From: a virus
Length of the DNA stretch: 64,000 nt
IMG/VR virus record: IMGVR_UViG_3300045988_169015
Span: 78,001-142,000 of that record
Strand: one strand, 5' to 3'
Of the stretch, positions 210 through 52,377 are shown piece by piece (positions within the stretch are counted from its first letter, which is position 1; every line of letters starts with the position of its first letter). The notes below the pieces were generated by a model. It did not search any database. It was not told where the DNA came from and saw only the letters and a program-made list of their open reading frames with translations. The translations under genes were made by a program, and so were the position numbers.

Positions 210-268
210 AATAGTTACCTCCAAATTCCATAAGCAGATAATCATAAAAACTTTTATCAGTGGTTGAA

Positions 269-493: not shown

Positions 494-596
494 CAAAAAA
501 TCCTCCTATCAAATGTGAATTTTACTATCTTTTTCATTATTTATAACCTCCATTAAACAATTATTTTGTTTTGCAATTAGCATAACAAGATGTTTT

Positions 597-1683
597 CTAC
601 AAAGGTTTAGATGTATTGGAGGAGAGTGTCCGTGACACCCGCTGATAAGCGGGGTGTAACTGGACTGATCGCCTCCTATAGTACAAAGCTATTATGCTGA
701 TTGCAGTTATCAAAACCGAGCCTGGCGGCAATTTACTAAAACAGTTTAGATATGAGGGATCTGAAACGTCGGGCACTTGTCAGGTATGAATAGTGCCCGT
801 CGGTGTAAGATCCCGAAATGCAGTTTGCCAAACTCGGTTATGCAGCCGGAATATCCATGGTATCGCTAAAGGAATTTAGATATGAACCTTCTGAAAGAAG
901 AGTCATCGACGCTTCAATCAACGAAGTTGATTGAGGGTCATCGACTCATCTTTCGAAGGTGCAGTGCATATTGGATATCACGGTTACTGAATTTAATTGA
1001 AGTGCTTATTGTATTGCTGAAAGATTTTTAGATACAATGTCGTGGGTGCATCTTGAAGCTCGCACGTTTGCGAGCGGTTTTGTGATGATTCTCAATGACA
1101 TTATTGCATTTAAGGTGCTGCAATTATTTATATATATTTCCTGACCGCCGAATTTTCGCTAAAAGCATTTAGATAACATGTATCACGGAGATGAGAAACA
1201 TCCAGCAGTGTGCTGGATGGCTCTCATCTGAGGGATTACATGTTTGCATTAGGACGGACAGAAATCAGATCAGCAATTTCCGGCAGCAGTTGTTCGCTAA
1301 ATTGATTTAGATAATACCATCTTGTCTGAGGAAAGAGTACTGGGAGTGTCCCAGTACATTTCTTCGGACCAGATGCGTATTTGCATTTTGCCGCCGGGAA
1401 TTAAGAAATCATAACACCGAATTGTCGCTAAAGTAATTTAGATATAAAGAATCACGACAGCGGCGTGAAGCGATGGGTGACGCATCACGAGCGCCGAGGG
1501 AGGGATTATTGATTGCATTTTGTGTTATGAATTAGGAATTATTCGGCTTGTGGAAACATATGCTTACTAAAGATATTTAGATAAGAGGCAGCATAAACGA
1601 TCTCGAACTCTGGAGGTCTCCAGGATGAGAAGATCGTGTTGCTGCGGACTTGAATGTTGTTTCCGCAAGTCGTTTTGCAGTTA
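597..1683. repeat. tandem array of 8 structured units (conserved CTAAA-N4-TTTAG-ATA box + unit-specific long hairpin + TTGCAKT)
   Basis: TTTAGAT at 606, 745, 875, 1027, 1168, 1306, 1437, 1576 (period 130-152 bp). Units are approx 597-707, 736-824, 866-965, 1017-1110, 1159-1250, 1297-1387, 1428-1519, 1567-1683. The box is followed directly by a 65-95 nt imperfect hairpin, e.g. unit 5 ACATGTA..AGATGAGA..CATCCAGCA-gtg-TGCTGGATG..TCTCATCT..TACATGT. Each unit ends at TTGCA[TG]T (ATGCAGT and GTGCAGT in units 2 and 3). No consistent ORFs. Confidence 0.85.
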
Positions 1684-1983
1684 GTGATTTGCCGCTATAG
1701 CGTCCAGCTCAGATTGGAATTCGGACACAACATATTCGGCGTCGTAATGCCACTGCTCATCGTTGTTTCTGCAGTCCTCATACATGTCTAATATGTCACG
1801 CCAAAGTTCCTGATTTGCAGTTACCTTTTCCTGCGTCTGAGCGCCATACTCTTCTTCGATAGTCATCGCCATATCTTCTGCGTTGTATTCACTCTTGACG
1901 AATTTATAAACATCGAAAGCATCGTAAGAACTAAGCACTGTGCCGTTGACAACGTATTCGCCATTACTGTTTCGTGTTACCAT
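1681..1983 (-). CDS. hypothetical protein (100 aa), embedded between repeat units 8 and 9
   Basis: ORF track; SD ACGGAGG 7 nt upstream of ATG; its TAA stop is part of a TAACTGCAA motif copy. Confidence 0.75.
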   Translation of the reverse strand: MVTRNSNGEYVVNGTVLSSYDAFDVYKFVKSEYNAEDMAMTIEEEYGAQTQEKVTANQELWRDILDMYEDCRNNDEQWHYDAEYVVSEFQSELDAIAANH

Positions 1984-2036
1984 ATGTATTCCTCCGTTAC
2001 AATTATAATAGTATAACTCTCAGCCGCAGCGATTTA

Positions 2037-2153
2037 CTAAAACCATTTAGATTAAGAGTCCGTGATTTACGAGCATCGTACGGGAGTGATAACTGTCGTC
2101 GATGCTTATAAATCCGGATGATATGCACTTTGCTGACTGAGAGTTTGCAGTTA
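2037..2153. repeat. ninth copy of the structured unit, separated from the array by one gene
   Basis: CTAAA-acca-TTTAG-AT at 2037-2052; nested hairpin TCCG/GATTTA/AGCATCG...CGATGCT/TAAATC/CGGA; ends TTGCAGTTA at 2145-2153. Confidence 0.8.
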
Positions 2154-2158
2154 TTTTT

Positions 2159-2989
2159 TTATTCCATATTCGCAAAAGGATCGCTGAGGCTGATGTAGTT
2201 TTCCGCCATAGAAACCTTAAGTGCCTTATAGAAATAGTAGTCGGGTGACTGAATCTCGAGTCTGAGTTTTCTGAGGGCATTCTCTCTGGTGTAAACTTCA
2301 TCGAACCAGTGAAGAATAAATCTTCCGTCAAACATGATATAGTTTTTGAGAGTATAATAAGCGCCAGCCTTCTTGAAGCTGCGAATAAACGCATCAGCAA
2401 GCTCGTGGTTCTTGAAGTATCTGCCGCCCTTCATGCCTGTGCCTTCGGGGATATCAAACGCTCTCTTTGCAATTACCAGTTCAATAGCCTCTGCAATTAC
2501 AGCGAAGTCTGAGTATGACCAAGCGGTATTTATAAGGCTCTGAAGACTGGGCTGGAACTCCTTAGCGAAGTTCATAAATATATCGGCGATGCTATTCACA
2601 TCAAAGAAATGCTTGCGCTCTTCAAATGCAACGGGGTCGTTATCTTTGAGGTGAGCCAGCAGCTTAGCTTCCTTACAGGTATAGAGGATACTGTACTTAT
2701 AGGTATAGAAATTTGCGATTACCTGATTGATACTTGTGGTGACACTCTCCTGTCTCATAAGTCTAATGAACTGAGCGGAGATCCAACGTCTTGTTGTTCT
2801 GGGGTTATAGACTTCGCCGCAGATCGTCTTGCCAAAATACTTACCGTGCGCAGGAATTGAGTTATCATTGTCGGCAGGGATTGGAGTATTAGCCATATCG
2901 AGCATTGACTTTGCCACCAGTTTTGCGAACTCATTCATATCGAGGTTGCTGTTGTTAAGGTTAACGTTGTTCGTGTTGTTGTTAGTCAT
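2159..2989 (-). CDS. hypothetical protein (276 aa), third gene of the RT operon
   Basis: ORF track; SD AAAAGGAG upstream; no motif recognised. Confidence 0.8.
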   Translation of the reverse strand: MTNNNTNNVNLNNSNLDMNEFAKLVAKSMLDMANTPIPADNDNSIPAHGKYFGKTICGEVYNPRTTRRWISAQFIRLMRQESVTTSINQVIANFYTYKYSILYTCKEAKLLAHLKDNDPVAFEERKHFFDVNSIADIFMNFAKEFQPSLQSLINTAWSYSDFAVIAEAIELVIAKRAFDIPEGTGMKGGRYFKNHELADAFIRSFKKAGAYYTLKNYIMFDGRFILHWFDEVYTRENALRKLRLEIQSPDYYFYKALKVSMAENYISLSDPFANME

Positions 2990-3032
2990 AATAAATTTCT
3001 CCTTTTAATATGTATGGTTTATGGTTTTCGGG

Positions 3033-3476
3033 TTACTGGATATAGCTGCGATAGATTATGAAACTATCGGTCAGTTTACGGAACCAGCCGGGCGTTTCCC
3101 ATTTAAGGGTACCGTTAAGACTTCCGATTATAATAGCGGCACAAAGCTTTGCGTGCATTACATCTCGGTTATCGTTACGGTAAAAGTCGGTCATGCTCAG
3201 CTCATCGGCAGACAGAGGTTTAAACAGGTAAGTCTTGCGGCTGTTCTCACTGCTCGGTGACGAATGAATAAAGTTCTCGTAAAGAGTTACCAGATCGTCA
3301 TAGCCGGACACAGGAGACCCCAACGAGTCGATAACTTCGCCGCCTATCATATCAGCTACAAGCTTGCCGTTTTCCATTACGACACGCTTATCTATTCTGA
3401 TATTCTTTTTGACCAGATCGAACCTGAGCTTATGCCCCGATTCTGATTTTGCAATTAACGCATCATACAGCGTCAT
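3033..3476 (-). CDS. hypothetical protein (147 aa), translationally coupled to the RT
   Basis: ATG at 3476 with AAAGGAGG 9 nt upstream, lying inside the last 14 nt of the RT gene (track start 3485 is a GTG). Confidence 0.75.
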   Translation of the reverse strand: MTLYDALIAKSESGHKLRFDLVKKNIRIDKRVVMENGKLVADMIGGEVIDSLGSPVSGYDDLVTLYENFIHSSPSSENSRKTYLFKPLSADELSMTDFYRNDNRDVMHAKLCAAIIIGSLNGTLKWETPGWFRKLTDSFIIYRSYIQ

Positions 3477-4842
3477 GTATAACACCTCCTTTTATTTTGT
3501 TTATCTCGCTCAGCCAGAGTTCGTGGTCGGTATGATAGACTTTGTACATATGATTAAGGCTGTACCAACCGGCAGCCCTTACCATATCTATTCCGTCTGC
3601 CACAGTCCTTTTCCTGTTGGCTTTAACGTTTATTCCTTTCTGGAACTGGATCGTGTAATTGGGGTTATTATCTGTAGAACCGAGACCCCAAACCTTATTG
3701 CGACCTGTTATCACTGCTCTTAAACAATCTTTACAATACCTGTCTATCATGTCGATATCATGTTTGCAGTTAACGGTTCCGAACAGATACTGACACATGC
3801 CGAACTGGTTGCTGTTCTCTTCATATGCAAGGAACAGATACCTCTGGAGCCGCCTGCATATCCGCTTGGTCTCCGCTTCGGTAGCCGGTCTTTTGTGTTC
3901 TCTGCTCCACTGTATCGTTTCAGATTTTATATGCTGCTCGATACCTCTGAGAGTTTTTGCAGACACAGTTATCAAGTCGCCACGTATCTTAAAGCCCAGA
4001 AACTCGAACCAGTCTTTATCTGCCTGTAACGCTTTGACCTTTTTGGGATTAAGAGTTACACCCTTTGGTTCGAGCATCTGCTTTATAACTTCGAGGGCGT
4101 GGTCAGCTTCCCTGCCGAGGATTATGATATCGTCAGAATAGCGATAATAGATAACATCCATATTACTTATGGTCTCATCTATATCTCTCAAGCACAGGTC
4201 AGCCAGCAGACAGGCGATAGGATTGCCCTGACTTAGTGATTTATATCTGTATTCGGGTTTTCCGTTTATGATTATAGTATCGTCGTGATAATGTTTAATT
4301 ACTATGTTATCGATACAATCCTTATCGGGAGTTATGATATCGAGTGTTCTGTCAAGCGTTTCACGATTTACGGTATCAAAGAACTTGCTCAGGTCAAGCT
4401 TGTATCCTTTGTACCATTTCTTACGGTTCATCTCACTGACAAGAGCCTTTACGGTCTTGCCGGCTGACAGTCCCCTGCGGTAAGAAACGCAGTTAGGATG
4501 TATCAGGTGGTGAAAATCGTCGTAATACATCTTATAGAATGTATTGCACAGAACTCGGTCAAACGTTTCGAGAACTGCAAGCTTGCGGACTTCTTCAAAG
4601 TTTCGCTTCTCTGCTTCGGCGAATGTCAACCAGTTGTCTGTAAGCTTGTCAATGTACATCTCTACAGGGGCTTTGAACTCGATTTTGCAATTAGCGATAA
4701 GGTCGCCTGCAAGAGCCCACGCTGCATCTTGCGAAAACGTGGACAGCACGCACATATCGAGTCCCTTGCGGTCGATGTGCAAAAGCGCTCTTTCATGCAG
4801 CTCTCGGTCGTTCACAAACCGTTCAAGTTTATTCGGTTTCAT
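3463..4842 (-). CDS. reverse transcriptase (RNA-directed DNA polymerase), unclassified group
   Basis: 459-aa ORF. RT motifs read by eye: KLDLSKFFDTV (motif 2), SLSQGNPIACLLADLCL (motif 4), YYRYSDDIIILG (YxDD), LNPKKVK (motif 6), FEFLGFKI (motif 7), plus about 180 aa of C-terminal extension. SD GGAAAGGAG. Confidence 0.9.
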   Translation of the reverse strand: MKPNKLERFVNDRELHERALLHIDRKGLDMCVLSTFSQDAAWALAGDLIANCKIEFKAPVEMYIDKLTDNWLTFAEAEKRNFEEVRKLAVLETFDRVLCNTFYKMYYDDFHHLIHPNCVSYRRGLSAGKTVKALVSEMNRKKWYKGYKLDLSKFFDTVNRETLDRTLDIITPDKDCIDNIVIKHYHDDTIIINGKPEYRYKSLSQGNPIACLLADLCLRDIDETISNMDVIYYRYSDDIIILGREADHALEVIKQMLEPKGVTLNPKKVKALQADKDWFEFLGFKIRGDLITVSAKTLRGIEQHIKSETIQWSREHKRPATEAETKRICRRLQRYLFLAYEENSNQFGMCQYLFGTVNCKHDIDMIDRYCKDCLRAVITGRNKVWGLGSTDNNPNYTIQFQKGINVKANRKRTVADGIDMVRAAGWYSLNHMYKVYHTDHELWLSEINKIKGGVIHDAV

Positions 4843-4958
4843 TTATCTCTTCTCCTTTCCGATTATTCTTATTACAGTTATCAGTTCATCGTCATACAGA
4901 TAACATTCGCAGTCATCTCCATGACGGCATGATGTTGTCCCCTTGTCATCATATACAG

Positions 4959-5126
4959 TTATTCTTCTTCCACCTCCCAAGTATCTGTTTCTGCATCGTC
5001 AAGATAGAGATTACAGTTATTATAAAATGATTTCTCTGCCGCTTTCACCGCTGCATCTTTATTTTCAGCTTCGATGTGAAGCGTTGTATATCCAGTTACT
5101 AAAAGTGTTACACTGTACTTCTTCAT
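4959..5126 (-). CDS. hypothetical small protein (55 aa)
   Basis: Below the track cut-off. ATG at 5126 overlaps the upstream TGA (ATGA); GGAGG 7 nt upstream; MKKYSVTLLVTGYTTLHIEAENKDAAVKAAEK... Confidence 0.5.
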   Translation of the reverse strand: MKKYSVTLLVTGYTTLHIEAENKDAAVKAAEKSFYNNCNLYLDDAETDTWEVEEE

Positions 5127-5371
5127 TTATAAGCCTCCTCTACTGTATATGTAACGATGTTACCGTCGGTCAGACTTATTGTTTTCAGATTCTCCCTTTC
5201 GTCGCACGTTTCATCTACGTGTATGTGAAGGTTGTCATATTCCAATAAGTCAAGGCAGTATGCCCTCTGCAGTTCTTCAACTGCGGTATCATAATCATCG
5301 CAGAGCTGAACAAGAAGTATGCCGTCATAAGCACTGCGAATAATTACAGCATAACCTATCTGATTCATCAC
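5123..5371 (-). CDS. hypothetical protein (82 aa)
   Basis: ORF track; GTG 5371 or ATG 5368; packed head to tail with neighbours. Confidence 0.7.
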   Translation of the reverse strand: MMNQIGYAVIIRSAYDGILLVQLCDDYDTAVEELQRAYCLDLLEYDNLHIHVDETCDERENLKTISLTDGNIVTYTVEEAYK

Positions 5372-5374
5372 CTA

Positions 5375-5548: not shown

Positions 5549-5567
5549 TCTCGTTCTCCTTTTGCAG

Positions 5568-6143: not shown

Positions 6144-6211
6144 AAGAGTGTTTTACCTTTTGTACCTACCATAACAATTTCATTATTGCATACCATATTG
6201 AATGCCTCCTA

Positions 6212-6913: not shown

Positions 6914-6933
6914 AGGTATTTTCTCCTTTCAAA

Positions 6934-7293: not shown

Positions 7294-7307
7294 TTGCAGT
7301 CCTCCTT

Positions 7308-13657: not shown

Positions 13658-14434
13658 TTACGCATTTACGCCTTCGCCCTGATTGTCGATCGCATCAAGG
13701 GGAACGTAATTATCGTGGGCGAATTTGACCAGTTTAAGAAATGCGTTAAAATCCATTCCGTACTTTTCCATGCCTCTGAGCTTGCCCTTGTTTATGCAAG
13801 TCAGCATCTGAGACTGGATCTCAGGAACGCACTTGCAAATATAAGCAAATTTAAACCGTTCCAGCATGGGAGAGAACAGCTTTTGTAATGCGGCTTCGTT
13901 CATCTGTTCAAACCGATTCTTCATATCATAGTATGCCTTGACGTTTGGGTCTTCGTTGATTGTTTTGTCGATGTGTATGAGCACATCTATTGGACTGACA
14001 TACTCGGTAGCAGGTTCGGGATTTGCGGTTACGGGGACAACGACGGCAGAAGTTTCGGGCTCCGACTTTGCCGATTTGCCGTTAAGATATTCCTTGAAAC
14101 CGTCAAGTGTCTCTCTGGAAAAACGATTAGGAAATTGTCCCCTGCCATGAATGTCGGGGACTATGAGTCCCCTCTTTATGTAATAGTTCAATGTGGGATA
14201 TGAAATTCCCAGATATTTAGCTGCTTCTGAACTGGTCAGCATATCGGAATTTCCGACTACACCTTCGACATAGCGAAGGATATCCTCTTTTGTCCACTTG
14301 CTACGATTCGCATTGCGAAATGCAAGGCGAATTGTAGAATGTGGTGCATCAATAATATGTGCGACCTGAGAAATGGTAAATTCGGTCTGTGCTGTTACCT
14401 CGAGAGCTGCTTTGATTTCTGCGATTGTTTTCAT
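13658..14434 (-). CDS. DNA-binding protein with two helix-turn-helix segments (excisionase/MerR-like)
   Basis: FTISQVAHIIDAPHSTIRLAF and LTSSEAAKYLGISYPTLNYYIKRGLI resemble excisionase-family HTH. ATG 14434 with AAAGGA upstream (track TTG 14452). Confidence 0.7.
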   Translation of the reverse strand: MKTIAEIKAALEVTAQTEFTISQVAHIIDAPHSTIRLAFRNANRSKWTKEDILRYVEGVVGNSDMLTSSEAAKYLGISYPTLNYYIKRGLIVPDIHGRGQFPNRFSRETLDGFKEYLNGKSAKSEPETSAVVVPVTANPEPATEYVSPIDVLIHIDKTINEDPNVKAYYDMKNRFEQMNEAALQKLFSPMLERFKFAYICKCVPEIQSQMLTCINKGKLRGMEKYGMDFNAFLKLVKFAHDNYVPLDAIDNQGEGVNA

Positions 14435-14453
14435 AATATCATTTCCTTTCAAA

Positions 14454-17977: not shown

Positions 17978-18013
17978 TAGAGTATTAAAACACATTAGAA
18001 AGGGTTGACCAAT

Positions 18014-18814
18014 ATGTACGCAATAGCCAATTCGCCCGTAGTTTCTCTCGCCAATGTTATCAACATAGATCGTCGTCCGAAACCTGTCCCCTCTAATTAC
18101 ACGGCCCGAGGAAAGCGCAAAGCAACACCGGGAGACCCATTCCGAGAGCTCTCAGACATTCAGCTTTTCAAGAACTACTTTCACGAGCACTCCCTCCGTA
18201 ACTATGCACTCTTTGTCCTTGGCATTTCAATCGGTATAAGAGGCAAAGACTTACTCCGCCTGCAAGTTCGTGATGTAGTAACCAACGACGGGTTCGTTGC
18301 TGATGAGATATCAACTTTCGAATCTAAGACACACAAGATGAACCACCCAATCATCAATGCCGAAGCCAAGGCAGCAATAGCTGAATATTTGAGCAGTCTT
18401 TCCGTAGTTCACCCCGATGACTATCTCTTCAGAGCCTCGTCTGACGAAAACAAGCCTCTTGAAACTAATTCTCTTCGTCGTCTTCTGGTCAGAGCAAAGG
18501 AAGCGCTTGCTCCTCAGCTCTCATGTAACTTCAGTCTCAACGTTCGTTCACTTCGCAAGACGTTCGCATATTGGATAATTGTTCAGCATTATGATGATCC
18601 CCACGTAATGGCTTCACTGCAGGAAATGCTCAACCACGACTCAATGCTCACAACGCTCCATTATTCCGGACACACTCGTGATCATCTGTCCGTCATGTAC
18701 CAAGACATGGGAAACGTTGTTGCTGGCACGGCAACCAGAGCTCTCCCTCAAACAGAAAGTGTCGAAGCAATGCTCGAAAAGCTGCTTGATGCCCTTAAGC
18801 TCGATGCTGAGTAA
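18014..18814 (+). CDS. int: tyrosine recombinase / integrase
   Basis: ORF track 18005..18814 (TTG); ATG at 18014. Catalytic-domain-like segments GIRGKDLLRLQ, SLRKTFAYW, LNHDSMLTTLHYSGH (terminal Tyr region). Confidence 0.75.
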   Translation: MYAIANSPVVSLANVINIDRRPKPVPSNYTARGKRKATPGDPFRELSDIQLFKNYFHEHSLRNYALFVLGISIGIRGKDLLRLQVRDVVTNDGFVADEISTFESKTHKMNHPIINAEAKAAIAEYLSSLSVVHPDDYLFRASSDENKPLETNSLRRLLVRAKEALAPQLSCNFSLNVRSLRKTFAYWIIVQHYDDPHVMASLQEMLNHDSMLTTLHYSGHTRDHLSVMYQDMGNVVAGTATRALPQTESVEAMLEKLLDALKLDAE

Positions 18815-25630: not shown

Positions 25631-26656
25631 ATGACAATAAATGAAATCAAGTTTGCGCTCCGCAGCTCTGAATACAGCTTCCTGTCGGATAATCCACATC
25701 TTGGCTCTAATATCATCTTGTTGACAGTCGGCGGTTCCCACGCTTACGGAACGGATACGCCCACCAGCGACTTGGATATCCGAGGATGTGCTCTGAATAC
25801 TCCAAGGGAGCTGCTTACCAGCGAAAATTTCGAGCAGTTTGTAAATGAGGAGACCGACACGACGATATATTCGTTCAACAAGTTGGTCTCACTGCTCACT
25901 AATTGTAACCCCAACACCATCGAGATGCTGGGAAACAAGCCAGAGCATTATTTCTATATCTCCCCTATTGGGCAGGAACTTATTGACAACGTTGAGCTGT
26001 TTCTCTCCCAGAAGGCAGCATACAGCTTCGGTGGGTATGCAACCGCTCAGCTTCGTCGCCTTGAAAATAAAGCCAACCGCCTTGTTGGTCAGGAACAGCT
26101 GGAACAGTATATCTATAACACACTGTCTCAAGTTGCCGAAAACTTTGAAGAAAAATATGGTATTCCTGCTGGTCAGCTTCGACTGTATATCGACAAGGCT
26201 GTAAATCCCGATATGGAAACTGAGATTTTCATGGACACTAACTTGACTCACTACCCTATCAGAGACTACGCCGGAATGTGGGATGAAATGAAGAGCATTA
26301 TCAAGTCTTACAATAACATCGGCTGTCGCAATAGCAAGGCTATCGAAAACGGAAGGCTTGGCAAGCATATGATGCACTTGATTCGTCTGTATCTCATGTG
26401 TACTGACATTCTTGAGGGACGAGGCGTAATAACATACCGTGAAAAGGATCGTGACCTGCTGATAGACATCCGCAACGGCAAGTACCTTGATGAAAATCAG
26501 CAGCCCACTTCCGAGTTCTATGAGATGATAGACGAATATGAAAAGAAATATCAGTATGCGAAAGAGCACACTGAACTCCCACCTAAGCCAAACTACAAGG
26601 CAATAAATGATTTCGTTCAGAGCGTCAATGAAAGAGTGATAAAAAATGAAGTATAA
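25631..26656 (+). CDS. RlaP-like (pol-beta superfamily) nucleotidyltransferase
   Basis: LLTVGGSHAYGTDTPTSDLDIRG is the GS..YG...SD.D signature remembered for the RNA-repair-associated RlaP family. Confidence 0.65.
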   Translation: MTINEIKFALRSSEYSFLSDNPHLGSNIILLTVGGSHAYGTDTPTSDLDIRGCALNTPRELLTSENFEQFVNEETDTTIYSFNKLVSLLTNCNPNTIEMLGNKPEHYFYISPIGQELIDNVELFLSQKAAYSFGGYATAQLRRLENKANRLVGQEQLEQYIYNTLSQVAENFEEKYGIPAGQLRLYIDKAVNPDMETEIFMDTNLTHYPIRDYAGMWDEMKSIIKSYNNIGCRNSKAIENGRLGKHMMHLIRLYLMCTDILEGRGVITYREKDRDLLIDIRNGKYLDENQQPTSEFYEMIDEYEKKYQYAKEHTELPPKPNYKAINDFVQSVNERVIKNEV

Positions 26657-27986
26657 AATTGATATGCCGCCCAATGCAAATGTAATCATTCATGCACTTC
26701 AAGATGCAGGTTACAAAGCATATATCGTTGGCGGCTGTGTCAGAGATAGTCTAATGAACAGATTTCCTCATGACTGGGATATATGCACTTCTGCGAGACC
26801 GGAGCAAACGCTTGAAGTGTTTAAAGATTACCGTGTTATCGAGACGGGGTTGCAGCATGGCACGGTAACAGTAGTCATTGATGGCGAGCAGTATGAATGC
26901 ACTTCGTTTCGTATCGACGGGGTGTATTCCGACAATCGCAGACCTGACAGCGTGACGTTCGTTGATGATCTTACAGAAGACTTAAGACGTCGAGATTTTA
27001 CAATCAATGCAATGGCATATAATGACGAAGAAGGTCTTATCGATCCGTTTGATGGAATGGGTGATATAAAGCGTGGCATAATCAGATGCGTTGGGAATGC
27101 GGCAGATAGGTTTAACGAAGATGCTCTCAGAATACTTAGAGCCATTCGATTTGCCGCACAGCTGCGTTTTGTTATTGAAGACAACACGTCTTCTGAACTA
27201 AACAGACAGAGGGATTCTTTAGCAAATATATCCACTGAAAGAATTACCAGCGAATTCAATAAAATCGTTATATCCAATCGATTTGTCACAATGTTAGTCC
27301 TATATTTTCACGTATTCACACAATTTATTCCAGAGCTTAAGGATATGCTTAAGTTTCCTCAGAATAATCCTCATCATATGTACGATGTACTTATTCACAC
27401 ACTTTATACAGCAGTATCCTGTCAGAACGATCTTATCCTTCGATTGGCGGCATTATTCCACGATATCGGGAAACCTCATTCATACCAAGACGAACCTGAC
27501 GGTATCAGACATTTTGTGGGACACAATATTGTCGGGGCGGATATGACAGATAAAATCATGAGGCGCTTGAAATATGACAGCAACACCCGAAATGCTGTTG
27601 TTCAGTTGATTTTATATCACGATTCTTCGTTTATAGCAAAGCCATCAGCTGTTAAGCGTTGGCTAAACAAAGTGGGAGAAGTTCAATTAAAGCGTCTCAT
27701 CGATCTTCGCAGGGCTGATATTAGGGGGCAGAAAATTCCTTATGATAGGGAGAAAATGAGGAAAATTGATGATCTTGCAGATGTTTTAAACCAAGTTCTC
27801 GAAGAACAACAATGCTTTTCTATGAAAGACCTCGCAATCAATGGAGATGATCTTATTGTCTTGGGTTTTGTCCCGGGCAAGGAATTAGGGGAGGTGCTCA
27901 CAGGGTTGTTAAACTCCGTAACAGATGACGCTCTTCCGAACGATAAAGAAACGCTTTTAAAGGAGGCTCAGAAATGGCTCAAGTAA
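26646..27986 (+). CDS. cca: CCA-adding enzyme / tRNA nucleotidyltransferase with HD domain
   Basis: GGCVRDSLMNRFPHDWDICT head motif; RRDFTINAMAY; HDIGKP HD motif. Confidence 0.85.
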   Translation: MKYKIDMPPNANVIIHALQDAGYKAYIVGGCVRDSLMNRFPHDWDICTSARPEQTLEVFKDYRVIETGLQHGTVTVVIDGEQYECTSFRIDGVYSDNRRPDSVTFVDDLTEDLRRRDFTINAMAYNDEEGLIDPFDGMGDIKRGIIRCVGNAADRFNEDALRILRAIRFAAQLRFVIEDNTSSELNRQRDSLANISTERITSEFNKIVISNRFVTMLVLYFHVFTQFIPELKDMLKFPQNNPHHMYDVLIHTLYTAVSCQNDLILRLAALFHDIGKPHSYQDEPDGIRHFVGHNIVGADMTDKIMRRLKYDSNTRNAVVQLILYHDSSFIAKPSAVKRWLNKVGEVQLKRLIDLRRADIRGQKIPYDREKMRKIDDLADVLNQVLEEQQCFSMKDLAINGDDLIVLGFVPGKELGEVLTGLLNSVTDDALPNDKETLLKEAQKWLK

Positions 27987-38530: not shown

Positions 38531-39217
38531 ATGACAGAGAATAAACAGACTGACAATATTGAAGCGGTAATTTCTGAAGAGAAGAGCTGCGAATGTGGTG
38601 AAATGAATGTTCTTGAATGTGCATCATCAAATAATTTCAATTATGGACTCGAAGAAATGTTTGTTATGTCGGACATTGAGGACAGAAAACTTTTTATCAA
38701 TGGAGAAATCACCCCTGAGACCAGAGCCAATATTTCATATCATATCATGAGATATAATGCACTTGATATTGACGTACCCGTTACAGAGAGAACTCCAATC
38801 ATCATATACATATCATCTACCGGAGGTTCTACGTGGGACGGTATGGGAATCTGTGACTGCATCAAAAATTCAAAGACACCTGTAATTGGTGTTTGTACAT
38901 CATATGCACTGTCCATGGGATTCTATATCTATATTTCGTGCCACAAAAGATATGCTTCTGAAAACGCATTCTTTTTAAATCATGAAGGAAGAGACGGAGA
39001 TTATGGCAGTCCTTCTAAGGTTGATGACTATTGGAGATTTGGTCAAAAATATAAAGAGCGCTTGATGCAGTTTGTTGTGTCAAGAACAAAGCTTTCCATA
39101 AAAGACCTGAAAAAGACAGAGAGAATTGAAAATTATTATTTTGCAGATGAAGCCAAAACGCTTGGCATTGTAGATTCAATCATCGGCAAAGACTGTGACA
39201 TTGATGAGGTCGTATAA
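38531..39217 (+). CDS. clpP: ClpP-family serine protease
   Basis: IIIYISSTGGSTWDG, SYALSMGFYI (Ser), FFLNHEG (His) in ClpP order; about 60-aa N-terminal extension. Confidence 0.8.
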   Translation: MTENKQTDNIEAVISEEKSCECGEMNVLECASSNNFNYGLEEMFVMSDIEDRKLFINGEITPETRANISYHIMRYNALDIDVPVTERTPIIIYISSTGGSTWDGMGICDCIKNSKTPVIGVCTSYALSMGFYIYISCHKRYASENAFFLNHEGRDGDYGSPSKVDDYWRFGQKYKERLMQFVVSRTKLSIKDLKKTERIENYYFADEAKTLGIVDSIIGKDCDIDEVV

Positions 39218-39218
39218 T

Positions 39219-40508
39219 ATGGACAATCAATATTATATAGATCTTTACAATATTCTCTGTGAGAAGCAGCACAACGAGGATATTGAATGGCAGGATGTTG
39301 CCGATATGAGAGCCAGATATGGTATAAACGAAACCAGAGACTGTGCCCGTAAAGGTGCAAAGTTCTTCTATGAGTTTATCAACGGTGGCTGGGAAATCAA
39401 GCCTAAAACCAATGCTGCGACTATATCCACCAAGGAAACCGTTACGATAAACGCAGACAGATCGGAAACAAGCGAACGTACATTCTATATTGAGGATGAA
39501 AGTAAACTTCGTGACGTTGATTATCTTTTGCGCTTACATAATTATGATCCACGTTTCTTTGATGTTTCATCTGCTAAAAACAGCAAATGGAACAGTGGAG
39601 ACAAGACACTATATTCAAGCAAGATAACTGTAAAGCCCAAAGTCCCCGAACTAATGGACTCTGACATGAAGCAGTGGTTCGATGATTTAGATAGAAGATA
39701 CAGTAATATTACCATTCCCGTAGTATCATCAGATTACGGAACGGGTGATAATCTGCTTATTTTACCCATATCTGACCTTCACTTTGCTCTCAGATCCAGT
39801 ATGCTTGAGACCGGAAGCGAATATAACTGCGAGATTGCTGAAAATCTATTTTACTATGTCATTAAAGATGTGATGTCTCGTGTGAAACATATCAAGCTTA
39901 GTAGGATTATATTTACTATAGGCGGAGATCAAAGTAATTTTGATAATCTTGCCGGAACAACTACTAAGGGAACACCGCAAGATAATGCTTGTGGATATTT
40001 TGATATGATGCAGAAGCTGTTCGATATGACTATTATAGCTATTGATATGCTTGCAAATATCGCACCTGTAGATGTTGTCTTGGTGAATGCTAATCATGAC
40101 AAGACTGTTGGATATTCTCTTGCACAATATTGCTATGCCTGGTATAAGGATGACAAAAGAGTAACGGTAGATATGTCCCCTGCTCCTCGTAAGTATCGTG
40201 TTTTTGGTAAAACACTTTTCGTGTTCGCACATGACGCTGATATTAAAAAGCTTCCTGCCCTCATCCCTGATGAGTGTAGAAAAGTATGGAGCAGTGTAAC
40301 TAATACTGAAGTATTTTTACAGCATCTACATAGTGAAATGGTTCTCGATGAAAACAATCACATGAGAATTCAAAGATTGCCCACTATCAGTGCGCCATCA
40401 GCGTGGACTACTGAGCAAGGATATCGTTCAAAGAGACAATGTAAGTCTTTTATTTTCGATAAAGAATATGGACTTACGGATGTTCTATACACAAATATTA
40501 AAGAATAA
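39219..40508 (+). CDS. metallophosphoesterase (Mre11/SbcD-like motifs)
   Basis: ISDLHF, IGGDQSNFDN, NANHDK, FAHDAD, LQHLH; ATG 39219 (track start 39195). Confidence 0.65.
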   Translation: MDNQYYIDLYNILCEKQHNEDIEWQDVADMRARYGINETRDCARKGAKFFYEFINGGWEIKPKTNAATISTKETVTINADRSETSERTFYIEDESKLRDVDYLLRLHNYDPRFFDVSSAKNSKWNSGDKTLYSSKITVKPKVPELMDSDMKQWFDDLDRRYSNITIPVVSSDYGTGDNLLILPISDLHFALRSSMLETGSEYNCEIAENLFYYVIKDVMSRVKHIKLSRIIFTIGGDQSNFDNLAGTTTKGTPQDNACGYFDMMQKLFDMTIIAIDMLANIAPVDVVLVNANHDKTVGYSLAQYCYAWYKDDKRVTVDMSPAPRKYRVFGKTLFVFAHDADIKKLPALIPDECRKVWSSVTNTEVFLQHLHSEMVLDENNHMRIQRLPTISAPSAWTTEQGYRSKRQCKSFIFDKEYGLTDVLYTNIKE

Positions 40509-41213: not shown

Positions 41214-41288
41214 GGTGCGATGGTCAAGTGGTTAAGATGGTGCCCTTTCACGGCGTCGGCTCGGGTTCGAATCCCGATCGCATCCCCA
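41214..41288 (+). tRNA. tRNA-Glu (anticodon UUC), CCA encoded
   Basis: Hand-folded cloverleaf. Acceptor GGTGCGA/TCGCATC; anticodon stem GTGCC/GGCGT with loop CTTTCAC; T arm TCGGG-TTCGAAT-CCCGA; discriminator C, then CCA (41286-41288). Confidence 0.85.
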
Positions 41289-42043: not shown

Positions 42044-43090
42044 ATGCCGAAGCAAAATTTAGGACGTAAAGCTCCTCAGCAACAAAAGAAAAAAGCTGTA
42101 GATACGCGTGTTGAGATGCTTAAACAAATTGCTGCTGGTAACGAGAATGTCCCATTTATGTATCGCTGCGAAAAATGCGGCAAACAAGTTATGGACGATG
42201 ACAGAGAATTTATGATCAGCTTCAGCAAGCTTCACGTAGGACACAGATGCAGGCTTCCAATATGCAAAGACTGTTTGGATTCGTTATATGAGGAATATCT
42301 CGAAGAGCTTGGCAGCGAAGAAGAAGCGGTTCGCAGAGTGTGCATGAAGTTTGACATATATTATAATAAAGAGATCGTCAATTTGATGAAGAGCGCTTCT
42401 AAGCCTTTGAAGCGAATGACATACTATGTTGGTAAAACCCATACTGCAAAGTATGCAAACAAAACATATGACACTACTATATTGGAAGAAAAGGCAGAAG
42501 AGGATAAAATAACTACATATGAGGATATGTATTCTTCAAAAGAGATAGATCCAGATACGGTGTCTTTCTGGGGTTCCGGATTTAAACCCGAAGATTACGA
42601 ATATTTGGATAGCCGATATTCTGAATGGATCCTATCTTATCCTGTACAGGCAAAGGCTATGGAAGCAATTATTCAGAAAATATGTTTGCTTGAGCTTCAG
42701 ATTATGAGAGGTATTCAAAAGGGAGATAAGGTTGATAGCTTATGTAAGGCTATGAACGACCTTATGAATTCTGCGGGCATTCAGCCTAAACAAAGCAGCG
42801 AGAACACAATGAGCGACACTGCTTCATTCGGGGTCCTGATAAAACGTTGGGAAGACGAAGAGCCTATACCCGAACCTGAAGAAAAATGGAAAGATATCGA
42901 TGGAATCAGACGCTATATCAGCGTCTTTTTCTTTGGACATTTATCTAAGATGTTCGGATTTAAAAATAACTGGAGTCAACTCTATGAAGACGAAATAAGA
43001 AAATATACTGTTAATCGTCCTGAGCTTGAAGAAGAAGATATCAATCAGATCACATATGAAGATATTTTTGGGTCCGGTGATGAGCCTTGA
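42044..43090 (+). CDS. terS: putative terminase small subunit
   Basis: Position only: directly upstream of and overlapping the large terminase; zinc ribbon CEKCGK...CKDC. Confidence 0.4.
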   Translation: MPKQNLGRKAPQQQKKKAVDTRVEMLKQIAAGNENVPFMYRCEKCGKQVMDDDREFMISFSKLHVGHRCRLPICKDCLDSLYEEYLEELGSEEEAVRRVCMKFDIYYNKEIVNLMKSASKPLKRMTYYVGKTHTAKYANKTYDTTILEEKAEEDKITTYEDMYSSKEIDPDTVSFWGSGFKPEDYEYLDSRYSEWILSYPVQAKAMEAIIQKICLLELQIMRGIQKGDKVDSLCKAMNDLMNSAGIQPKQSSENTMSDTASFGVLIKRWEDEEPIPEPEEKWKDIDGIRRYISVFFFGHLSKMFGFKNNWSQLYEDEIRKYTVNRPELEEEDINQITYEDIFGSGDEP

Positions 43091-44850
43091 GTAAATATAG
43101 ACAGTATAATACAGGAATACAGGACAAGTCTGAAAAGATGATGACTACGATAGCAAAGCGTGCAGCATTCTACAGAGAAAATCCTAACAGATTTGTAAAG
43201 GATTATCTGGGAATAGAGCTGAAATTATTCCAAGAGATTATTCTTGTGATGATGAATTACTGCACGAACAGTATGTTTTTGGCCGCAAGAGGCCTCGGAA
43301 AAACATACTTAACAGCTATTTTCTGTGTTGTCAGATGTATCTTGTATCCCGGTACCAAAATATGCGTAGCATCAAAAACACTTAAGCAGGCCAAGGAAGT
43401 TCTGAAGAAGATAACGTCAGAGCTTATGCCGAATTCTCCAAATCTTAGATTGGAGATAAAACAAATAACGCTCAATAGTGTTGATGCTCAGATTGAATTT
43501 AAAAATGGTTCTATGATTTTCGTAACCACTACGACCGATACAGCTCGTGGCGGCAGATGTCACATACTTCTTGTGGATGAGTTCCGTCTGTGCAAGAAAG
43601 AAGTTATTGAAACCGTTCTCAGACCTTTTATGCGTTCGGAGCGTATGCCTGGTTTCTTCAAGAAGAAAGAATATGTTAACTATCCCAAGGAACGTAATAA
43701 AGAAATTTACATGTCTTCGGTGTGGCTTAAGTCACATTGGGCATATAAAGAAGCACAGAGCTATGTTGTCGATCTGATGAATCAAAAGAAGAAAACATTT
43801 ATATGCGGACTTCCCTATCAGATGTCTATCAAAGAAGGACTTTTGAATCCAGAGCAAGTATTGGAAGAAATGATGAGCCCGACTTTTAATGAAATTTCAT
43901 TCAGCATGGAGTCTGGCTGCTTATGGTGGGGCGAAAGTGAAGATTCATTTTTCAGGTTTGACGACTTGATGAAAGCCAGAAGAATCAAAGAAGCTATATA
44001 TCCCAAAGAGATATATACTCAGATCTCGAACAAAATCATTAAGTATCCCGAAAAAACACCGGGAGAACTTAGATTGCTTTCTGCCGATATTGCTGTAATG
44101 AGTTCGAAGCGCAATAAAAATGATGCAACATCAATTTTTGTTACTCAGCTGCTTCCCACTAAAGACGGTCAATATATCAGAAATGTCCTCTATTCTGAAA
44201 ATAAAGAAGGCGGACATACTGAAGATCAAGCCCTAACCATCCGTCGAATTTTTGAGCAAATGGATTGTGATTACATAGTTATAGATACTCAAGGTGTTGG
44301 TGTTGGAGTATTTGATAATCTTGTTAAGGATATGACTGATGATATAACCGGAGAATTTTATCCTGCTTTCACTTGTATTAACGATGCTGAGATGGCTGAG
44401 CACTATAAAGGATCAAGCACTAATCCTGCAAAAGTTATATATAGTGTAAAAGCTAACACGAAATGGAACTCACAATGCGCATATGCTCTAAGAGACTGTA
44501 TTCGTCGTGGTAAAATGAGACTTCTTCTTGATGAAGAGGAATTTAATGATGAATATGAAAGCAATAAAGCATTTTATAATTTGAGTGCTGAAGATAAGCT
44601 CACCATTAAAATGCCTTATATCCAGACATCGTTGCTCATCAATGAATTGGTCAATCTTGAATATACGACTGTTGGAGCAGAAATAAAGATCAAAGAGACC
44701 GGAACAAATCGAAAAGACCGATACAGCTCACTATCTTATGCAAATCAGATTGCAAATGAGCTTGAACGTAAATTGAGTAAGCCTAAACTTTCCCAGAGTG
44801 CATTTAGGCTTCAATGCAGAAGCCCTAAATGTATGTCGATAGGAAGGTGA
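43087..44850 (+). CDS. terL: terminase large subunit
   Basis: Walker A-like AARGLGKT, Walker B HILLVDEF, C-terminal nuclease-like IVIDTQGVGVGVFD; 587 aa. Confidence 0.85.
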   Translation: MSKYRQYNTGIQDKSEKMMTTIAKRAAFYRENPNRFVKDYLGIELKLFQEIILVMMNYCTNSMFLAARGLGKTYLTAIFCVVRCILYPGTKICVASKTLKQAKEVLKKITSELMPNSPNLRLEIKQITLNSVDAQIEFKNGSMIFVTTTTDTARGGRCHILLVDEFRLCKKEVIETVLRPFMRSERMPGFFKKKEYVNYPKERNKEIYMSSVWLKSHWAYKEAQSYVVDLMNQKKKTFICGLPYQMSIKEGLLNPEQVLEEMMSPTFNEISFSMESGCLWWGESEDSFFRFDDLMKARRIKEAIYPKEIYTQISNKIIKYPEKTPGELRLLSADIAVMSSKRNKNDATSIFVTQLLPTKDGQYIRNVLYSENKEGGHTEDQALTIRRIFEQMDCDYIVIDTQGVGVGVFDNLVKDMTDDITGEFYPAFTCINDAEMAEHYKGSSTNPAKVIYSVKANTKWNSQCAYALRDCIRRGKMRLLLDEEEFNDEYESNKAFYNLSAEDKLTIKMPYIQTSLLINELVNLEYTTVGAEIKIKETGTNRKDRYSSLSYANQIANELERKLSKPKLSQSAFRLQCRSPKCMSIGR

Positions 44851-51902: not shown

Positions 51903-52377
51903 TTCATTTGAAATAATCAAATATAAACAGCAAATAGGCTCAATGCTGATTAACTGTCCCGAAATTGTTGAACTTATCAATAATGATGAAATCGAAGAAC
52001 CTGAAGACTTGATAGGAAAAAATATTTTCAACTTTATCAGATATCCGAACGCTCCGGAAGAAGAGATAACATTTATTGCATTTGAAGTCGATGTTCCGGA
52101 AGTTTATAGCGACAGAAACTACCTATTCAAACAGTTAACTATTACATTTTATATAGTATCACATGAAAGGCTTATGCCGACAGATGATGTGTCGGGTGGC
52201 GTAAGAAACGATCTTATTGCCGCTTACATAGATAAGCTTTTCAATGGATATGAAGGTATAGGCAAAAAAGAACTGAGACTTATCAGTAATACTGCTCAAG
52301 CCATAAGTGTAAAACATCGCTGCAGAATAATGAAATTTGTTGCTGATGACTTAAATAACAGCAGGTGTAAAATATGA
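51895..52377 (+). CDS. hypothetical structural protein (160 aa)
   Basis: ORF track. Confidence 0.65.
   Translation: MANSFEIIKYKQQIGSMLINCPEIVELINNDEIEEPEDLIGKNIFNFIRYPNAPEEEITFIAFEVDVPEVYSDRNYLFKQLTITFYIVSHERLMPTDDVSGGVRNDLIAAYIDKLFNGYEGIGKKELRLISNTAQAISVKHRCRIMKFVADDLNNSRCKI

What the first reader, a model, noticed from the sequence alone, without database searches (positions are those of the whole stretch)
2159..5126. Orphan reverse-transcriptase operon in a phage early arm; not a DGR, group II intron or canonical retron
The 459-aa protein has all core RT motifs, including YSDD, and a long C-terminal extension. Its motif 4 (SQGNPIACLLADLCL) and motif 7 (FLGF) look group-II-intron-like or unknown-group rather than DGR (no SQ..AN) or retron (no VTG). 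The RT stop overlaps the start of a 147-aa gene by 14 nt. That gene is followed by a 276-aa gene and then the hairpin units. Upstream are two tiny ORFs: a 55-aa ORF, and a possible Cys-rich ORF of about 45 aa at 4843-4980 with no clear start. Phage-borne non-DGR RTs with co-translated partners are rare, and their roles (anti-defence, superinfection exclusion, genome maintenance) are largely unknown.
Basis: partly seen in the sequence, partly recalled or inferred. Interest (0 to 1): 0.75.

Follow-up and report, generated by a model that had tools for sequence, protein, structure and literature searches.

The report
Phage UG27 reverse transcriptase with template array
This is a typical phage-borne "UG27" reverse-transcriptase system: three proteins plus a neighbouring array of nine small RNA hairpin templates, a family named in 2022 and shown in a 2026 preprint to make short single-stranded DNA hairpins whose biological role is still unknown.

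Summary
Window 2159-4842 (minus strand) carries an intact 459-aa RT (YSDD), a 147-aa gene overlapping the RT stop by 14 nt, and a 276-aa gene.

The operon is not an orphan. The RT matches the PADLOC RT_UG27 profile nearly end to end (5e-86). The partners match the two UG27-associated profiles, RTas346 and RTas337. UG27 was defined by Mestre et al. 2022 as a gut-phage RT with these two partners. A bioRxiv preprint of 24 Sep 2026 shows that UG27 loci carry arrays of ncRNA units. All three proteins copy each unit's central hairpin into a 50-100 nt ssDNA.

The "hairpin units" below the 276-aa gene are that array. I count nine units (577-2147, minus strand). Each has a covarying basal stem, a UGCA loop, a 67-83 nt central hairpin and an AUC-UAAA-N4-UUUAG motif.

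Features specific to this clade:
- a variant 3' motif;
- short units of about 130 nt;
- a conserved acidic 100-aa gene inside the array;
- fast, structure-preserving turnover of units 1 and 6 among near-identical phages.

The 45-aa "Cys-rich ORF" is not a conserved gene. Verdict: a new member of a known kind. The family's biological function remains open.

The parts
3463..4842 (-). UG27 reverse transcriptase, 459 aa, YSDD active site, C-terminal extension conserved across the family
   Evidence: ORF. Pfam RVT_1 3.2e-21. PADLOC RT_UG27 5.1e-86, 287 bits, profile positions 65-416 of 420; the next best is RT_UG26 at 9e-47. Catalytic residues are invariant in a 28-sequence alignment.
3033..3476 (-). 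Small accessory protein (the preprint's sORF; Mestre cluster 346), 147 aa. Its ATG lies 14 nt inside the RT 3' end.
   Evidence: PADLOC RTas346 7.1e-18, full length. The same 14-nt overlap occurs in L029, L086 and L087. There are 117 representative homologues. The AF2 model has pLDDT 94 and pTM 0.90, with no PDB fold match.
2159..2989 (-). Large accessory protein (the preprint's bORF; Mestre cluster 337), 276 aa
   Evidence: PADLOC RTas337 1.1e-20, partial match. Conserved motifs YNPxxxRRWxxxQF, AFEERK and FKKAGAYYTLKN. The AF2 model has pLDDT 75 with a helical core at 63-276 and no PDB fold match.
2017..2147 (-). ncRNA unit 1; predicted template (central hairpin) 2053-2123
   Evidence: CM R1 71.6 bits; anatomy. 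The central part is hypervariable among near-identical phages.
1681..1983 (-). Conserved acidic 100-aa gene embedded between unit 1 and unit 2 (pI 4.05, net charge -16). A clade-specific passenger or a fourth component.
   Evidence: 93% aa identity in L001 and L002. 46% aa identity (E 1.6e-28) at the same position in L029. Called as a gene in L086-L091. No significant Pfam, PHROG or NCBIfam match: none in Pfam; PHROG E 0.058; one NCBIfam hit at E 0.0048, far below cut-off. Charge.
1547..1674 (-). ncRNA unit 2; template 1583-1650; its 5' loop carries UUCA instead of UGCA
   Evidence: CM R1 87.3 bits
1408..1537 (-). ncRNA unit 3; template 1444-1513
   Evidence: CM R1 78.4 bits; basal stem CATAACAC/GTGTTATG
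1277..1405 (-). ncRNA unit 4; template 1313-1381
   Evidence: CM R1 90.5 bits; basal stem CCGGCGGCA/TGCTGCCGG; compensatory changes in the apical stem relative to L001, L002 and L086
1139..1268 (-). ncRNA unit 5; template 1175-1244
   Evidence: CM R1 96.7 bits
998..1128 (-). ncRNA unit 6; template 1034-1104. In this window the basal stem and the mini-hairpin are damaged (AUCUAAAAAUCUUUCAG); they are intact in relatives.
   Evidence: CM R1 70.3 bits, but this unit is a seed member. Comparison with L001, L002 and L086.
846..988 (-). ncRNA unit 7; template 882-964 (the longest, 83 nt)
   Evidence: CM R1 87.2 bits
716..842 (-). ncRNA unit 8; template 752-818
   Evidence: CM R1 93.6 bits; 11-bp basal stem
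577..705 (-). ncRNA unit 9; template 613-681; motifs degenerate (UGUA; AUCUAAACCUUUGUAG)
   Evidence: It was not in the seed and scores 16.3 bits, E 0.08. Its fold shows the same architecture. The positional orthologue in L029 scores 42.7 bits.
4843..4958 (-). RT leader with the ribosome-binding site AAGGAG.

Best explanation
The locus is a complete UG27 (Class 2 UG/Abi) reverse-transcriptase system carried by a large, probably temperate, tailed phage.

**Proposed mechanism.**
- One leftward transcript carries the RT, the sORF (translationally coupled through a 14-nt overlap), the bORF and an array of nine structured ncRNA units. This is inferred.
- Each unit is a long hairpin with this layout: basal stem, 5' loop AAA-U(G/U)CA, central hairpin of 67-83 nt, 3' loop AUC-UAAA-NNNN-UUUAG plus about 8 nt, basal stem.
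- The three proteins form a complex. It starts DNA synthesis at the AUC just 3' of the central hairpin, copies the hairpin, and stops at the U(G/U)CA on the other side. This step rests on homology to the five systems tested in the preprint.
- Each unit therefore releases a distinct ssDNA hairpin of about 74-90 nt, with common 5'-GAT and TGCA-3' tails.

**What is shown here.** The family assignment of all three proteins, an intact active site, the array and its covarying structure, and the phage context.

**What is inferred by homology.** cDNA synthesis, its boundaries, and the requirement for all three proteins.

**What remains unknown.** The priming chemistry and the biological role. My best guess for the role, at low confidence (about 0.35), is that the ssDNA hairpins act as protein-binding decoys or aptamers in host takeover or counter-defence. 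The reasons are:
- the system is phage-borne;
- the family is not enriched in defence islands;
- no effector domain was recognisable;
- the templates show no complementarity to the phage;
- two templates evolve fast while keeping their structure.
For: **Family assignment.**
- PADLOC: RT_UG27 5.1e-86, RTas346 7.1e-18, RTas337 1.1e-20.
- Mestre 2022 defines UG27 as an RT with clusters 346 and 337 in gut phages, plus a putative ncRNA.
- The preprint describes RT, sORF and bORF plus an array of units of about 135, 149 or 167 nt. cDNA runs from AUC to UUYA. YSDD and both accessory ORFs are required.

**Array structure.**
- There are nine units with the same architecture.
- Across 30 units from the window and L001-L003, 83.7% of cells are paired, against 33-38% when the 3' partners are slid.
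- All 11 basal-stem pairs and all 8 outer central-stem pairs show double-sided changes.
- The covariation score is 0.63, against 0.15 in shuffles (0 of 500 reach it).

**Template properties.**
- Template length is 67-71 nt, and 83 nt in unit 7. Predicted cDNAs are 74-90 nt and fold as DNA hairpins.
- The same layout and a nine-unit array occur in relatives at 97% and 87% RT identity.

**Context and active site.**
- Phage context: TerL, portal and integrase.
- The active site is invariant.
- No match longer than 12 nt (or 16 nt with one mismatch) links the templates to the rest of the window, all at chance E-values. This agrees with the preprint.
Against: - No expression or cDNA data exist for this locus or its clade.
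- The RT is at most 48% identical to any cluster outside its two close subclades.
- The conserved motifs differ from the published consensus: AUC-N8-UUUAG versus AUC-N7-UANAG, and UGCA versus UUYA.
- I could not run the authors' covariance models.
- Unit 6 looks damaged in this window, and unit 9 is degenerate.
- The proposed role as decoy or aptamer has no direct support.
Confidence: 0.88

Rival explanations
1. A prophage-encoded anti-phage defence system of the DRT or abortive-infection type. The cDNA hairpins would act like retron msDNA, as guarded sensors that trigger an effector when a competing phage tampers with them.
For: - UG27 belongs to the UG/Abi family, many of whose groups are defence systems, and it sits in PADLOC as a "DRT" candidate.
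- The phage has an integrase, so it could protect a lysogen.
- Units 1 and 6 evolve fast, as expected in an arms race.
Against: - Mestre 2022 found no defence-island enrichment for UG27 and predicted a non-defence role.
- Neither accessory protein has a recognisable toxin or effector domain or fold.
- No defence phenotype has been reported.
Confidence: 0.2
2. A diversity-generating retroelement (DGR). The RT would copy a template repeat into a variable repeat of a target gene with adenine mutagenesis.
For: DGRs are the best-known phage-borne RTs, and the locus sits in a phage.
Against: - No direct repeats of 40 nt or more exist within 1-20000, so there is no TR/VR pair.
- The templates have no copy elsewhere in the window.
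- The partners match UG27-associated profiles, not Avd.
- The best RT profile by far is UG27.
Confidence: 0.01
3. A group II intron or a retron. The RT would be an intron maturase, or the RT of an msr/msd element making branched msDNA.
For: - The closest solved structures by sequence are retron-type and group II intron RTs.
- NCBIfam's best hit is the group II RT/maturase model.
- The product, a short ssDNA hairpin copied from a structured ncRNA, resembles msDNA.
Against: - All NCBIfam scores fall far below the curated cut-offs: group II 96 versus 300, retron St85 44 versus 235.
- Rfam finds no intron or other RNA family in 1-6000 at E<=1.
- Retron RT profiles in PADLOC score around 1e-12, against 5e-86 for UG27.
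- The arrangement of nine templates and two dedicated accessory proteins is not a retron layout.
Confidence: 0.02
4. An inactive relic. The genes and the array are decaying and make no product in this phage.
For: Unit 6 has a broken basal stem and mini-hairpin, and unit 9 has degenerate motifs.
Against: - All three ORFs are intact and 96-99% identical at the nucleotide level to L001 and L002 (the fourth close relative, L086, shares 97% RT aa identity).
- The catalytic residues are invariant, and seven units have intact architecture.
Confidence: 0.05

Closest known systems
UG27 reverse-transcriptase systems (Class 2 UG/Abi; Mestre et al. 2022, PMC9226505; Li et al. bioRxiv 2026, 10.64898/2026.09.22.753630)
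   Same: - The RT matches the UG27 profile, and both accessory proteins (clusters 346 and 337, i.e. sORF and bORF) are present.
- The system is phage-borne.
- It carries an array of sequence-diverse, structurally conserved ncRNA units. Each has a basal stem, an asymmetric internal loop carrying AUC..AG, and a central hairpin of a size that would give a 50-100 nt cDNA.
- The active site is YSDD.
   Different: - The 3' motif is AUC-UAAA-N4-UUUAG, a 5-bp mini-hairpin, rather than AUC-N7-UANAG.
- The 5' stop motif is mostly UGCA rather than UUYA.
- Units are short (127-143 nt), like the preprint's ~135-nt class that lacks the pseudoknot.
- A conserved acidic 100-aa gene is embedded in the array.
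- The RT is only 30-48% identical to other UG27 clusters.
Retrons (RT + msr/msd ncRNA giving msDNA)
   Same: An RT copies part of a neighbouring structured ncRNA into an abundant short ssDNA hairpin.
   Different: - The RT belongs to a different clade.
- There are nine templates per locus instead of one.
- Two accessory proteins are required for synthesis itself, rather than acting as effectors.
- No a1/a2 repeats or branching-G context were seen.
- The system is phage-encoded and has no defence association.
DRT2 (UG2) and DRT9 (UG28), UG/Abi RTs with cognate ncRNAs
   Same: They belong to the same superfamily. The ncRNA is encoded next to the RT and used as its template.
   Different: - According to the preprint, other Class 2 UG reverse transcriptases (DRT2 being the well-characterised case) make long, concatemeric cDNA products.
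- UG27 makes discrete short hairpins from many templates and needs two extra proteins.
- Profile scores are far lower: Drt2 3e-17 and Drt9 1.4e-20 in PADLOC.

Membership tests
UG27 system | The RT scores best, and near full length, against the UG27 RT profile | tested here: met
   PADLOC RT_UG27 5.1e-86, 287 bits, profile positions 65-416 of 420. The runner-up is RT_UG26 at 9e-47, 158 bits. No tree placement was made.
UG27 system | Adjacent cluster-346 protein (sORF) | tested here: met
   RTas346 7.1e-18, profile positions 2-144 of 147. It overlaps the RT by 14 nt.
UG27 system | Adjacent cluster-337 protein (bORF) | tested here: met
   RTas337 1.1e-20. The best stretch covers only profile positions 74-168 of 316, in two stretches.
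UG27 system | Array of ncRNA units, each with a basal stem, an asymmetric internal loop and a central hairpin | tested here: met
   Nine units. Covariation: 83.7% paired versus about 37% when slid, and 19 of 24 pairs with double-sided changes.
UG27 system | Published boundary motifs AUCNNNNNNNUANAG and UUYA | tested here: inconclusive
   AUC is invariant and sits at the base of the central stem. The rest reads UAAA-N4-UUUAG, with one extra nucleotide and UUUAG in place of UANAG. The 5' motif is UGCA in 7 of 9 units, UUCA in unit 2 and UGUA in unit 9. The published motif does occur in the distant loci L021 and L025. The authors' covariance models were not available to me.
UG27 system | Phage or prophage location | tested here: met
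   TerL 43087..44850, portal 44857..46332 and integrase 18005..18814. The nearest relatives are IMG/VR contigs of 111 and 146 kb.
UG27 system | RT-, sORF- and bORF-dependent synthesis of 50-100 nt ssDNA from each central hairpin | not testable with these tools
   This is known only from the preprint's five systems. The predicted products here are 74-90 nt.
DGR | A template repeat / variable repeat pair near the RT | tested here: not met
   No direct repeat of 40 nt or more in 1-20000. The templates have no second copy in the window.
Group II intron | Intron RNA domains flanking the ORF, and an RT/maturase above the family cut-off | tested here: not met
   No Rfam hit in 1-6000 at E<=1. TIGR04416 scores 96 bits against a cut-off of 300.
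Retron | A retron-clade RT with a single msr/msd | tested here: not met
   retron_St85_RT scores 44 bits against a cut-off of 235. PADLOC retron RT profiles score around 1e-12. The array of nine units is not an msr/msd layout.

The most novel reading that the evidence does not exclude
The cDNA hairpins would be specificity determinants in an arms race. The evidence comes from four phages whose RTs are 97-98% identical. Seven templates are 85-100% conserved among them. The apical parts of templates 1 and 6 have been rewritten (61-89% identity) while hairpin pairing is kept. On this reading the array is a modular, fast-evolving library of DNA decoys or aptamers against host proteins. The conserved, strongly acidic 100-aa protein embedded in the array would be a clade-specific fourth component.
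Probability: 0.2. Interest if true: 0.7.

Novelty: new member of a known kind. Interest (0 to 1): 0.3.

Why it matters
UG27 is one of the most abundant RT systems in gut phages, and nobody knows what its DNA hairpins do. This locus adds no new kind of system. It does offer a compact, well-delimited example from a divergent, probably Bacillota-infecting clade. Three things make it useful:
- predicted template boundaries that can be tested directly;
- a natural series of near-identical phages in which only two templates differ;
- an array-embedded acidic protein.

All three are handles for testing whether cDNA sequence or shape determines function.

Tried and rejected
- **GenBank phages.** Megablast of window 1-6000 found nothing. 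tblastn with the RT found only distant hits of 34% identity or less. One is Bacteroides phage BS-TP1, whose RT region is annotated "tail protein".
- **Rfam.** No family in 1-6000, even at E<=1.
- **DGR.** No repeats of 40 nt or more.
- **Extra units elsewhere in the window.** The only candidates were the CM hit at 52507-52599 (E 0.12) and a motif hit at 52633. Both lie inside the plus-strand ORF 52374..53129, so I rejected them as chance.
- **Accessory-protein function from structure.**
  - The sORF model is confident (pLDDT 94) and the bORF core is decent.
  - Foldseek against the PDB gave nothing: best E 3.9 and 0.7, TM below 0.25.
  - BFVD returned only one uncharacterised phage protein.
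  - Pfam, PHROGs and NCBIfam were empty for both.
- **Template complementarity to the phage.** Only chance matches of 12 nt or less (one 16-nt match with a mismatch, E 0.21).
- **Sigma-70 promoter and terminator scan.** Fewer promoter-like sites than in shuffles. The "terminators" are simply the central hairpins of the units.
- **One frameshifted gene upstream?** I considered whether the 55-aa and 45-aa ORFs are a single frameshifted gene homologous to the 91-aa ORF upstream of the RT in L029. There is no similarity.
- **Pseudoknot.** A search by eye involving the mini-hairpin loop found none. This was not tested rigorously.
Full report
**Observation**

- The RT is 459 aa (3463..4842).
- A 147-aa gene has its ATG at 3476, 14 nt inside the RT's 3' end.
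- A 276-aa gene sits at 2159..2989.
- Two small ORFs lie upstream: 55 aa at 4959..5126, and 45 aa with a TTG start at 4843..4980.

The RT has a Pfam RVT_1 domain (3.2e-21). I aligned it with 27 homologues spanning 24-87% identity. D150, Y235-S236-D237-D238 and F281-L282-G283 are invariant, so the active site is intact.

**Identity of the three genes**

Against PADLOC-DB the RT matches RT_UG27 at 5.1e-86. That is 287 bits over profile positions 65-416 of 420. The next best profile, RT_UG26, scores 9e-47, and retron, Cas-associated and other DRT profiles score far lower. The 147-aa protein matches RTas346 over its full length (7.1e-18). The 276-aa protein matches RTas337 (1.1e-20, partial).

These are the profiles of the two gene clusters that Mestre et al. 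2022 reported next to UG27 RTs. That paper makes four relevant points (PMC9226505).
- UG27 is a Class 2 UG/Abi RT.
- It is found mainly in human-gut phages of Bacteroidetes and Firmicutes, in 1447 dereplicated genomes.
- It shows no defence-island enrichment.
- It has a putative ncRNA.

NCBIfam places the RT far below the curated cut-offs of every family it touches.

| Family | Score (bits) | Cut-off (bits) |
|---|---|---|
| Group II RT/maturase | 96 | 300 |
| Drt3a | 60 | 200 |
| Drt2 | 49 | 390 |
| Retron St85 | 44 | 235 |

Rfam finds nothing in 1-6000. There is no direct repeat of 40 nt or more in 1-20000 that could be a DGR TR/VR pair. The label "orphan" does not hold.

**What is now known about the family**

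A bioRxiv preprint of 24 Sep 2026 (10.64898/2026.09.22.753630) reports the following.
- UG27 loci consist of the RT, a small accessory protein (sORF), a large accessory protein (bORF) and a variable array of ncRNA units.
- The units are structurally conserved but sequence-diverse. They are about 149 or 167 nt long, with a ~135-nt class that lacks a pseudoknot.
- Five systems were expressed in E. coli. [quoted passage not shown]
- The cDNAs start at the AUC of an AUCNNNNNNNUANAG motif and end after a UUYA motif.
- YSDD is required in all five systems. Deleting either accessory ORF, tested in two of them, abolished cDNA production.
- The biological role is stated to be unknown. No complementarity to phage or host genomes was found.

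**The hairpin units are the template array**

Reading the minus strand below the 276-aa gene, I found an invariant ATC followed by TAAA-N4-TTTAG. It occurs at 2052, 1582, 1443, 1312, 1174, 1033, 881 and 751, plus a degenerate copy at 612. A looser version of the motif gives 12 hits in the window, 8 of them here, against 3.35 expected.

Each unit has the same anatomy.
- A basal stem of 5-14 bp, whose sequence differs in every unit.
- A 5' loop ending in U(G/U)CA.
- A central hairpin of 67-71 nt, or 83 nt in unit 7. Its first and last nucleotides abut the UGCA and the AUC, and they pair in register.
- A 3' loop containing AUC, a 5-bp mini-hairpin CUAAA/UUUAG, and about 8 more nucleotides.
- The other strand of the basal stem.

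I built a covariance model from eight units. It recovers those eight by construction, finds the ninth (577-705) at 16 bits, and finds nothing credible elsewhere in the 64 kb. The hit at 52507-52599 lies inside a plus-strand ORF.

I then aligned 30 units from the window and three related loci to the model.
- 83.7% of pair cells are canonical, against 33-38% when the 3' partners are slid by 1-3 columns.
- All 11 basal-stem pairs and all 8 outer central-stem pairs show double-sided changes.
- The covariation score is 0.63, against 0.15 in shuffles (0 of 500 reach it).

Two cautions apply. Many of these units are orthologues from closely related phages. The alignment was also fitted to the model. 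Even so, the nine paralogous units within the window already differ completely in their stem sequences.

**Predicted products**

The predicted cDNAs run from AUC to UGCA and are 74-78 nt, or 90 nt for unit 7. They fold as DNA hairpins with dG of -11 to -25 kcal/mol. They share 5'-GAT and TGCA-3' tails. This fits the published size range. No template matches the rest of the window beyond chance-level matches (exact matches of 12 nt or less; one 16-nt match with a mismatch, E 0.21).

**How this clade differs from the published consensus**

The 3' motif is AUC-N8-UUUAG rather than AUC-N7-UANAG. The 5' motif is mostly UGCA rather than UUYA, although unit 2 has UUCA. The published motif is present in arrays of more distant UG27 loci that I fetched: L025 at 7218, 7414 and 7600, and L021 at 2984, 3239, 5685 and 5817. 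A 39%-identity relative, L003, uses AUCUAAA-N4-UUUAAG with UUCA.

The units are 127-143 nt long, which fits the preprint's short class without a pseudoknot. The preprint itself says some clades escape its models. I therefore treat the motif difference as clade variation, not as a failed membership test.

**Relatives and array evolution**

No GenBank phage is close. IMG/VR holds two contigs, of 146 and 111 kb, with 97-98% RT identity. Logan and ENA assemblies add one more close relative (L086) and a subclade at 87% identity (L029, L087-L091).

All share the same order: RT, sORF with the 14-nt overlap, bORF, unit(s), a 100-104-aa ORF, then more units. All also have nine units in total, arranged 1+8 in the window's subclade and 2+7 in the other.

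The embedded ORF (1681..1983) is conserved as a protein. It is 93% identical in the close relatives and 46% identical (E 1.6e-28) in the 87% subclade. It is strongly acidic, with pI 4.05 and net charge -16. It has no family match.

Against L001 and L002 the three genes are 96-99% identical at the nucleotide level. In pairwise comparisons among the four close phages (window, L001, L002, L086), most central templates are 85-100% identical. The central parts of unit 1 (68-89%) and unit 6 (61-82%) have been rewritten while pairing is preserved. Unit 4 shows compensatory changes. In this window unit 6 also has a damaged basal stem and mini-hairpin.

**Upstream ORFs**

The 45-aa ORF is not conserved. 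It is frame-split in L002, and only the RT leader is kept in L001. It covers the RT's AAGGAG ribosome-binding site. The 55-aa ORF is a variable neighbour and not part of the system.

**Context**

The window is phage DNA. It contains the following.
- Terminase large subunit at 43087..44850.
- Portal at 44857..46332.
- Exonuclease at 39195..40508.
- tRNA nucleotidyltransferase at 26646..27986.
- tRNA-Glu at 41214..41288.
- A tyrosine integrase at 18005..18814.
- An HTH protein at 13658..14452.

The RT block belongs to a leftward set of mostly small genes of unknown function. "Early" is plausible but untested. Strong GGAGG ribosome-binding sites point to a gut Bacillota host. So do the nearest genomic relatives, which are a Bacilli MAG at 41% and then Lachnospiraceae and Clostridia MAGs. 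This host assignment is an inference.

**Accessory proteins**

The sORF has 117 representative homologues and gives a confident AF2 model (pLDDT 94, pTM 0.90). The bORF gives pLDDT 75 with a well-predicted helical core. Neither has a structural neighbour in the PDB. BFVD returns only one uncharacterised phage protein for the sORF. This agrees with both papers' finding of no known domains. No UG27 protein has a solved structure. The nearest RT structures by sequence are retron-type and group II intron RTs.

**Mechanism and verdict**

The best-supported reading is a UG27 system that turns each of about nine RNA hairpins into a short ssDNA hairpin.
- Shown here: the gene families, the intact catalytic site, the array with covarying structure, and the phage context.
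- Inferred by homology: cDNA synthesis, its boundaries, and the requirement for three proteins.
- Open: the priming chemistry and the biological role.

I favour a protein-binding decoy or aptamer role in host takeover or counter-defence, at low confidence, over a lysogen-protecting defence role. My reasons are as follows.
- The system is phage-borne.
- The family is not enriched in defence islands.
- No effector domain is recognisable.
- There is no target complementarity.
- Two templates evolve fast while keeping their structure.

The locus is a new member of a known kind. Interest is modest, because the kind and its biochemical output are already published.

Noticed in passing
window, minus strand, 317-14940 (e.g. 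702, 1676, 1816, 2146, 3765, 4873, 4954, 5012, 5563, 10683, 14933): The octamer TAACTGYA is enriched: 19 hits against 4.7 expected, with 0 of 100 shuffles reaching 19. Twelve hits lie on the minus strand in the leftward gene block. Several overlap the TAA stop of a gene (ORF100, ORF55, the 191-aa ORF) or follow the bORF stop. Three lie within 180 nt upstream of the RT start. The octamer resembles the units' 5' loop motif AA(C/A)UGCA. Its function is unknown.
   Followed up: partly
window 2053-2123 and 1034-1104 versus L001, L002 and L086: The templates of units 1 and 6 are only 61-89% identical among four phages whose RTs are 97-98% identical. Hairpin pairing is kept. The other templates are 85-100% identical. 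This looks like unit-specific rapid turnover or cassette replacement.
   Followed up: partly
window 1681-1983 (-): A strongly acidic 100-aa protein (pI 4.05, charge -16) is conserved at the same place inside the array in both subclades (46% aa identity in L029). It has no known family. It could be a DNA-mimic-like passenger or a clade-specific fourth component.
   Followed up: partly
window 998-1128 (-): Unit 6 in this window has a 1-nt insertion and a U>C change in the otherwise invariant mini-hairpin, and three mismatches in its basal stem. Its orthologues in L001, L002 and L086 are intact. The unit may be decaying.
   Followed up: yes
sORF residues 101-136 (window 3069-3176 approx.): This stretch matches repeated segments of giant proteins in the representative library. 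P0135 (4428 aa) has 7 stretches at E 2e-13. P0200, P0214 and P0227 also match. It may be a shared repeat or motif, or a compositional artefact.
   Followed up: no
window 18005-18814 (+) and 13658-14452 (-): There is a tyrosine integrase (PF00589, 7e-11) and an HTH_17/MerR-type protein. The phage is probably temperate, which fits the preprint's finding of UG27 in prophages.
   Followed up: no
GenBank PQ571274.1 (Bacteroides phage BS-TP1) 79555-80517: An isolated phage carries a UG27-like RT (33% identity over 72% of the query) under a feature annotated "tail protein". This is probably a mis-annotation. The phage is a possible cultivable model for the family.
   Followed up: no
window 7998-9380 (-): A 460-aa protein has a run of ten threonines at its N-terminus and a weak M20/M28 peptidase-like core (below the Pfam cut-offs; PHROG peptidase 4e-29).
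   Followed up: no
L029 371-1228 and the synteny of L087/L088: In the subclade at 87% RT identity, an ArdC-N + MPTase-PolyVal (anti-restriction-like) gene lies about 4.3 kb upstream of the RT in the same gene block (seen in L029). This hints that the block holds counter-defence genes. No such gene was seen in the part of the window I examined.
   Followed up: no
window 57260-63556 (+): A 2098-aa ORF lies at the right end of the window, downstream of the head genes. I did not examine it.
   Followed up: no
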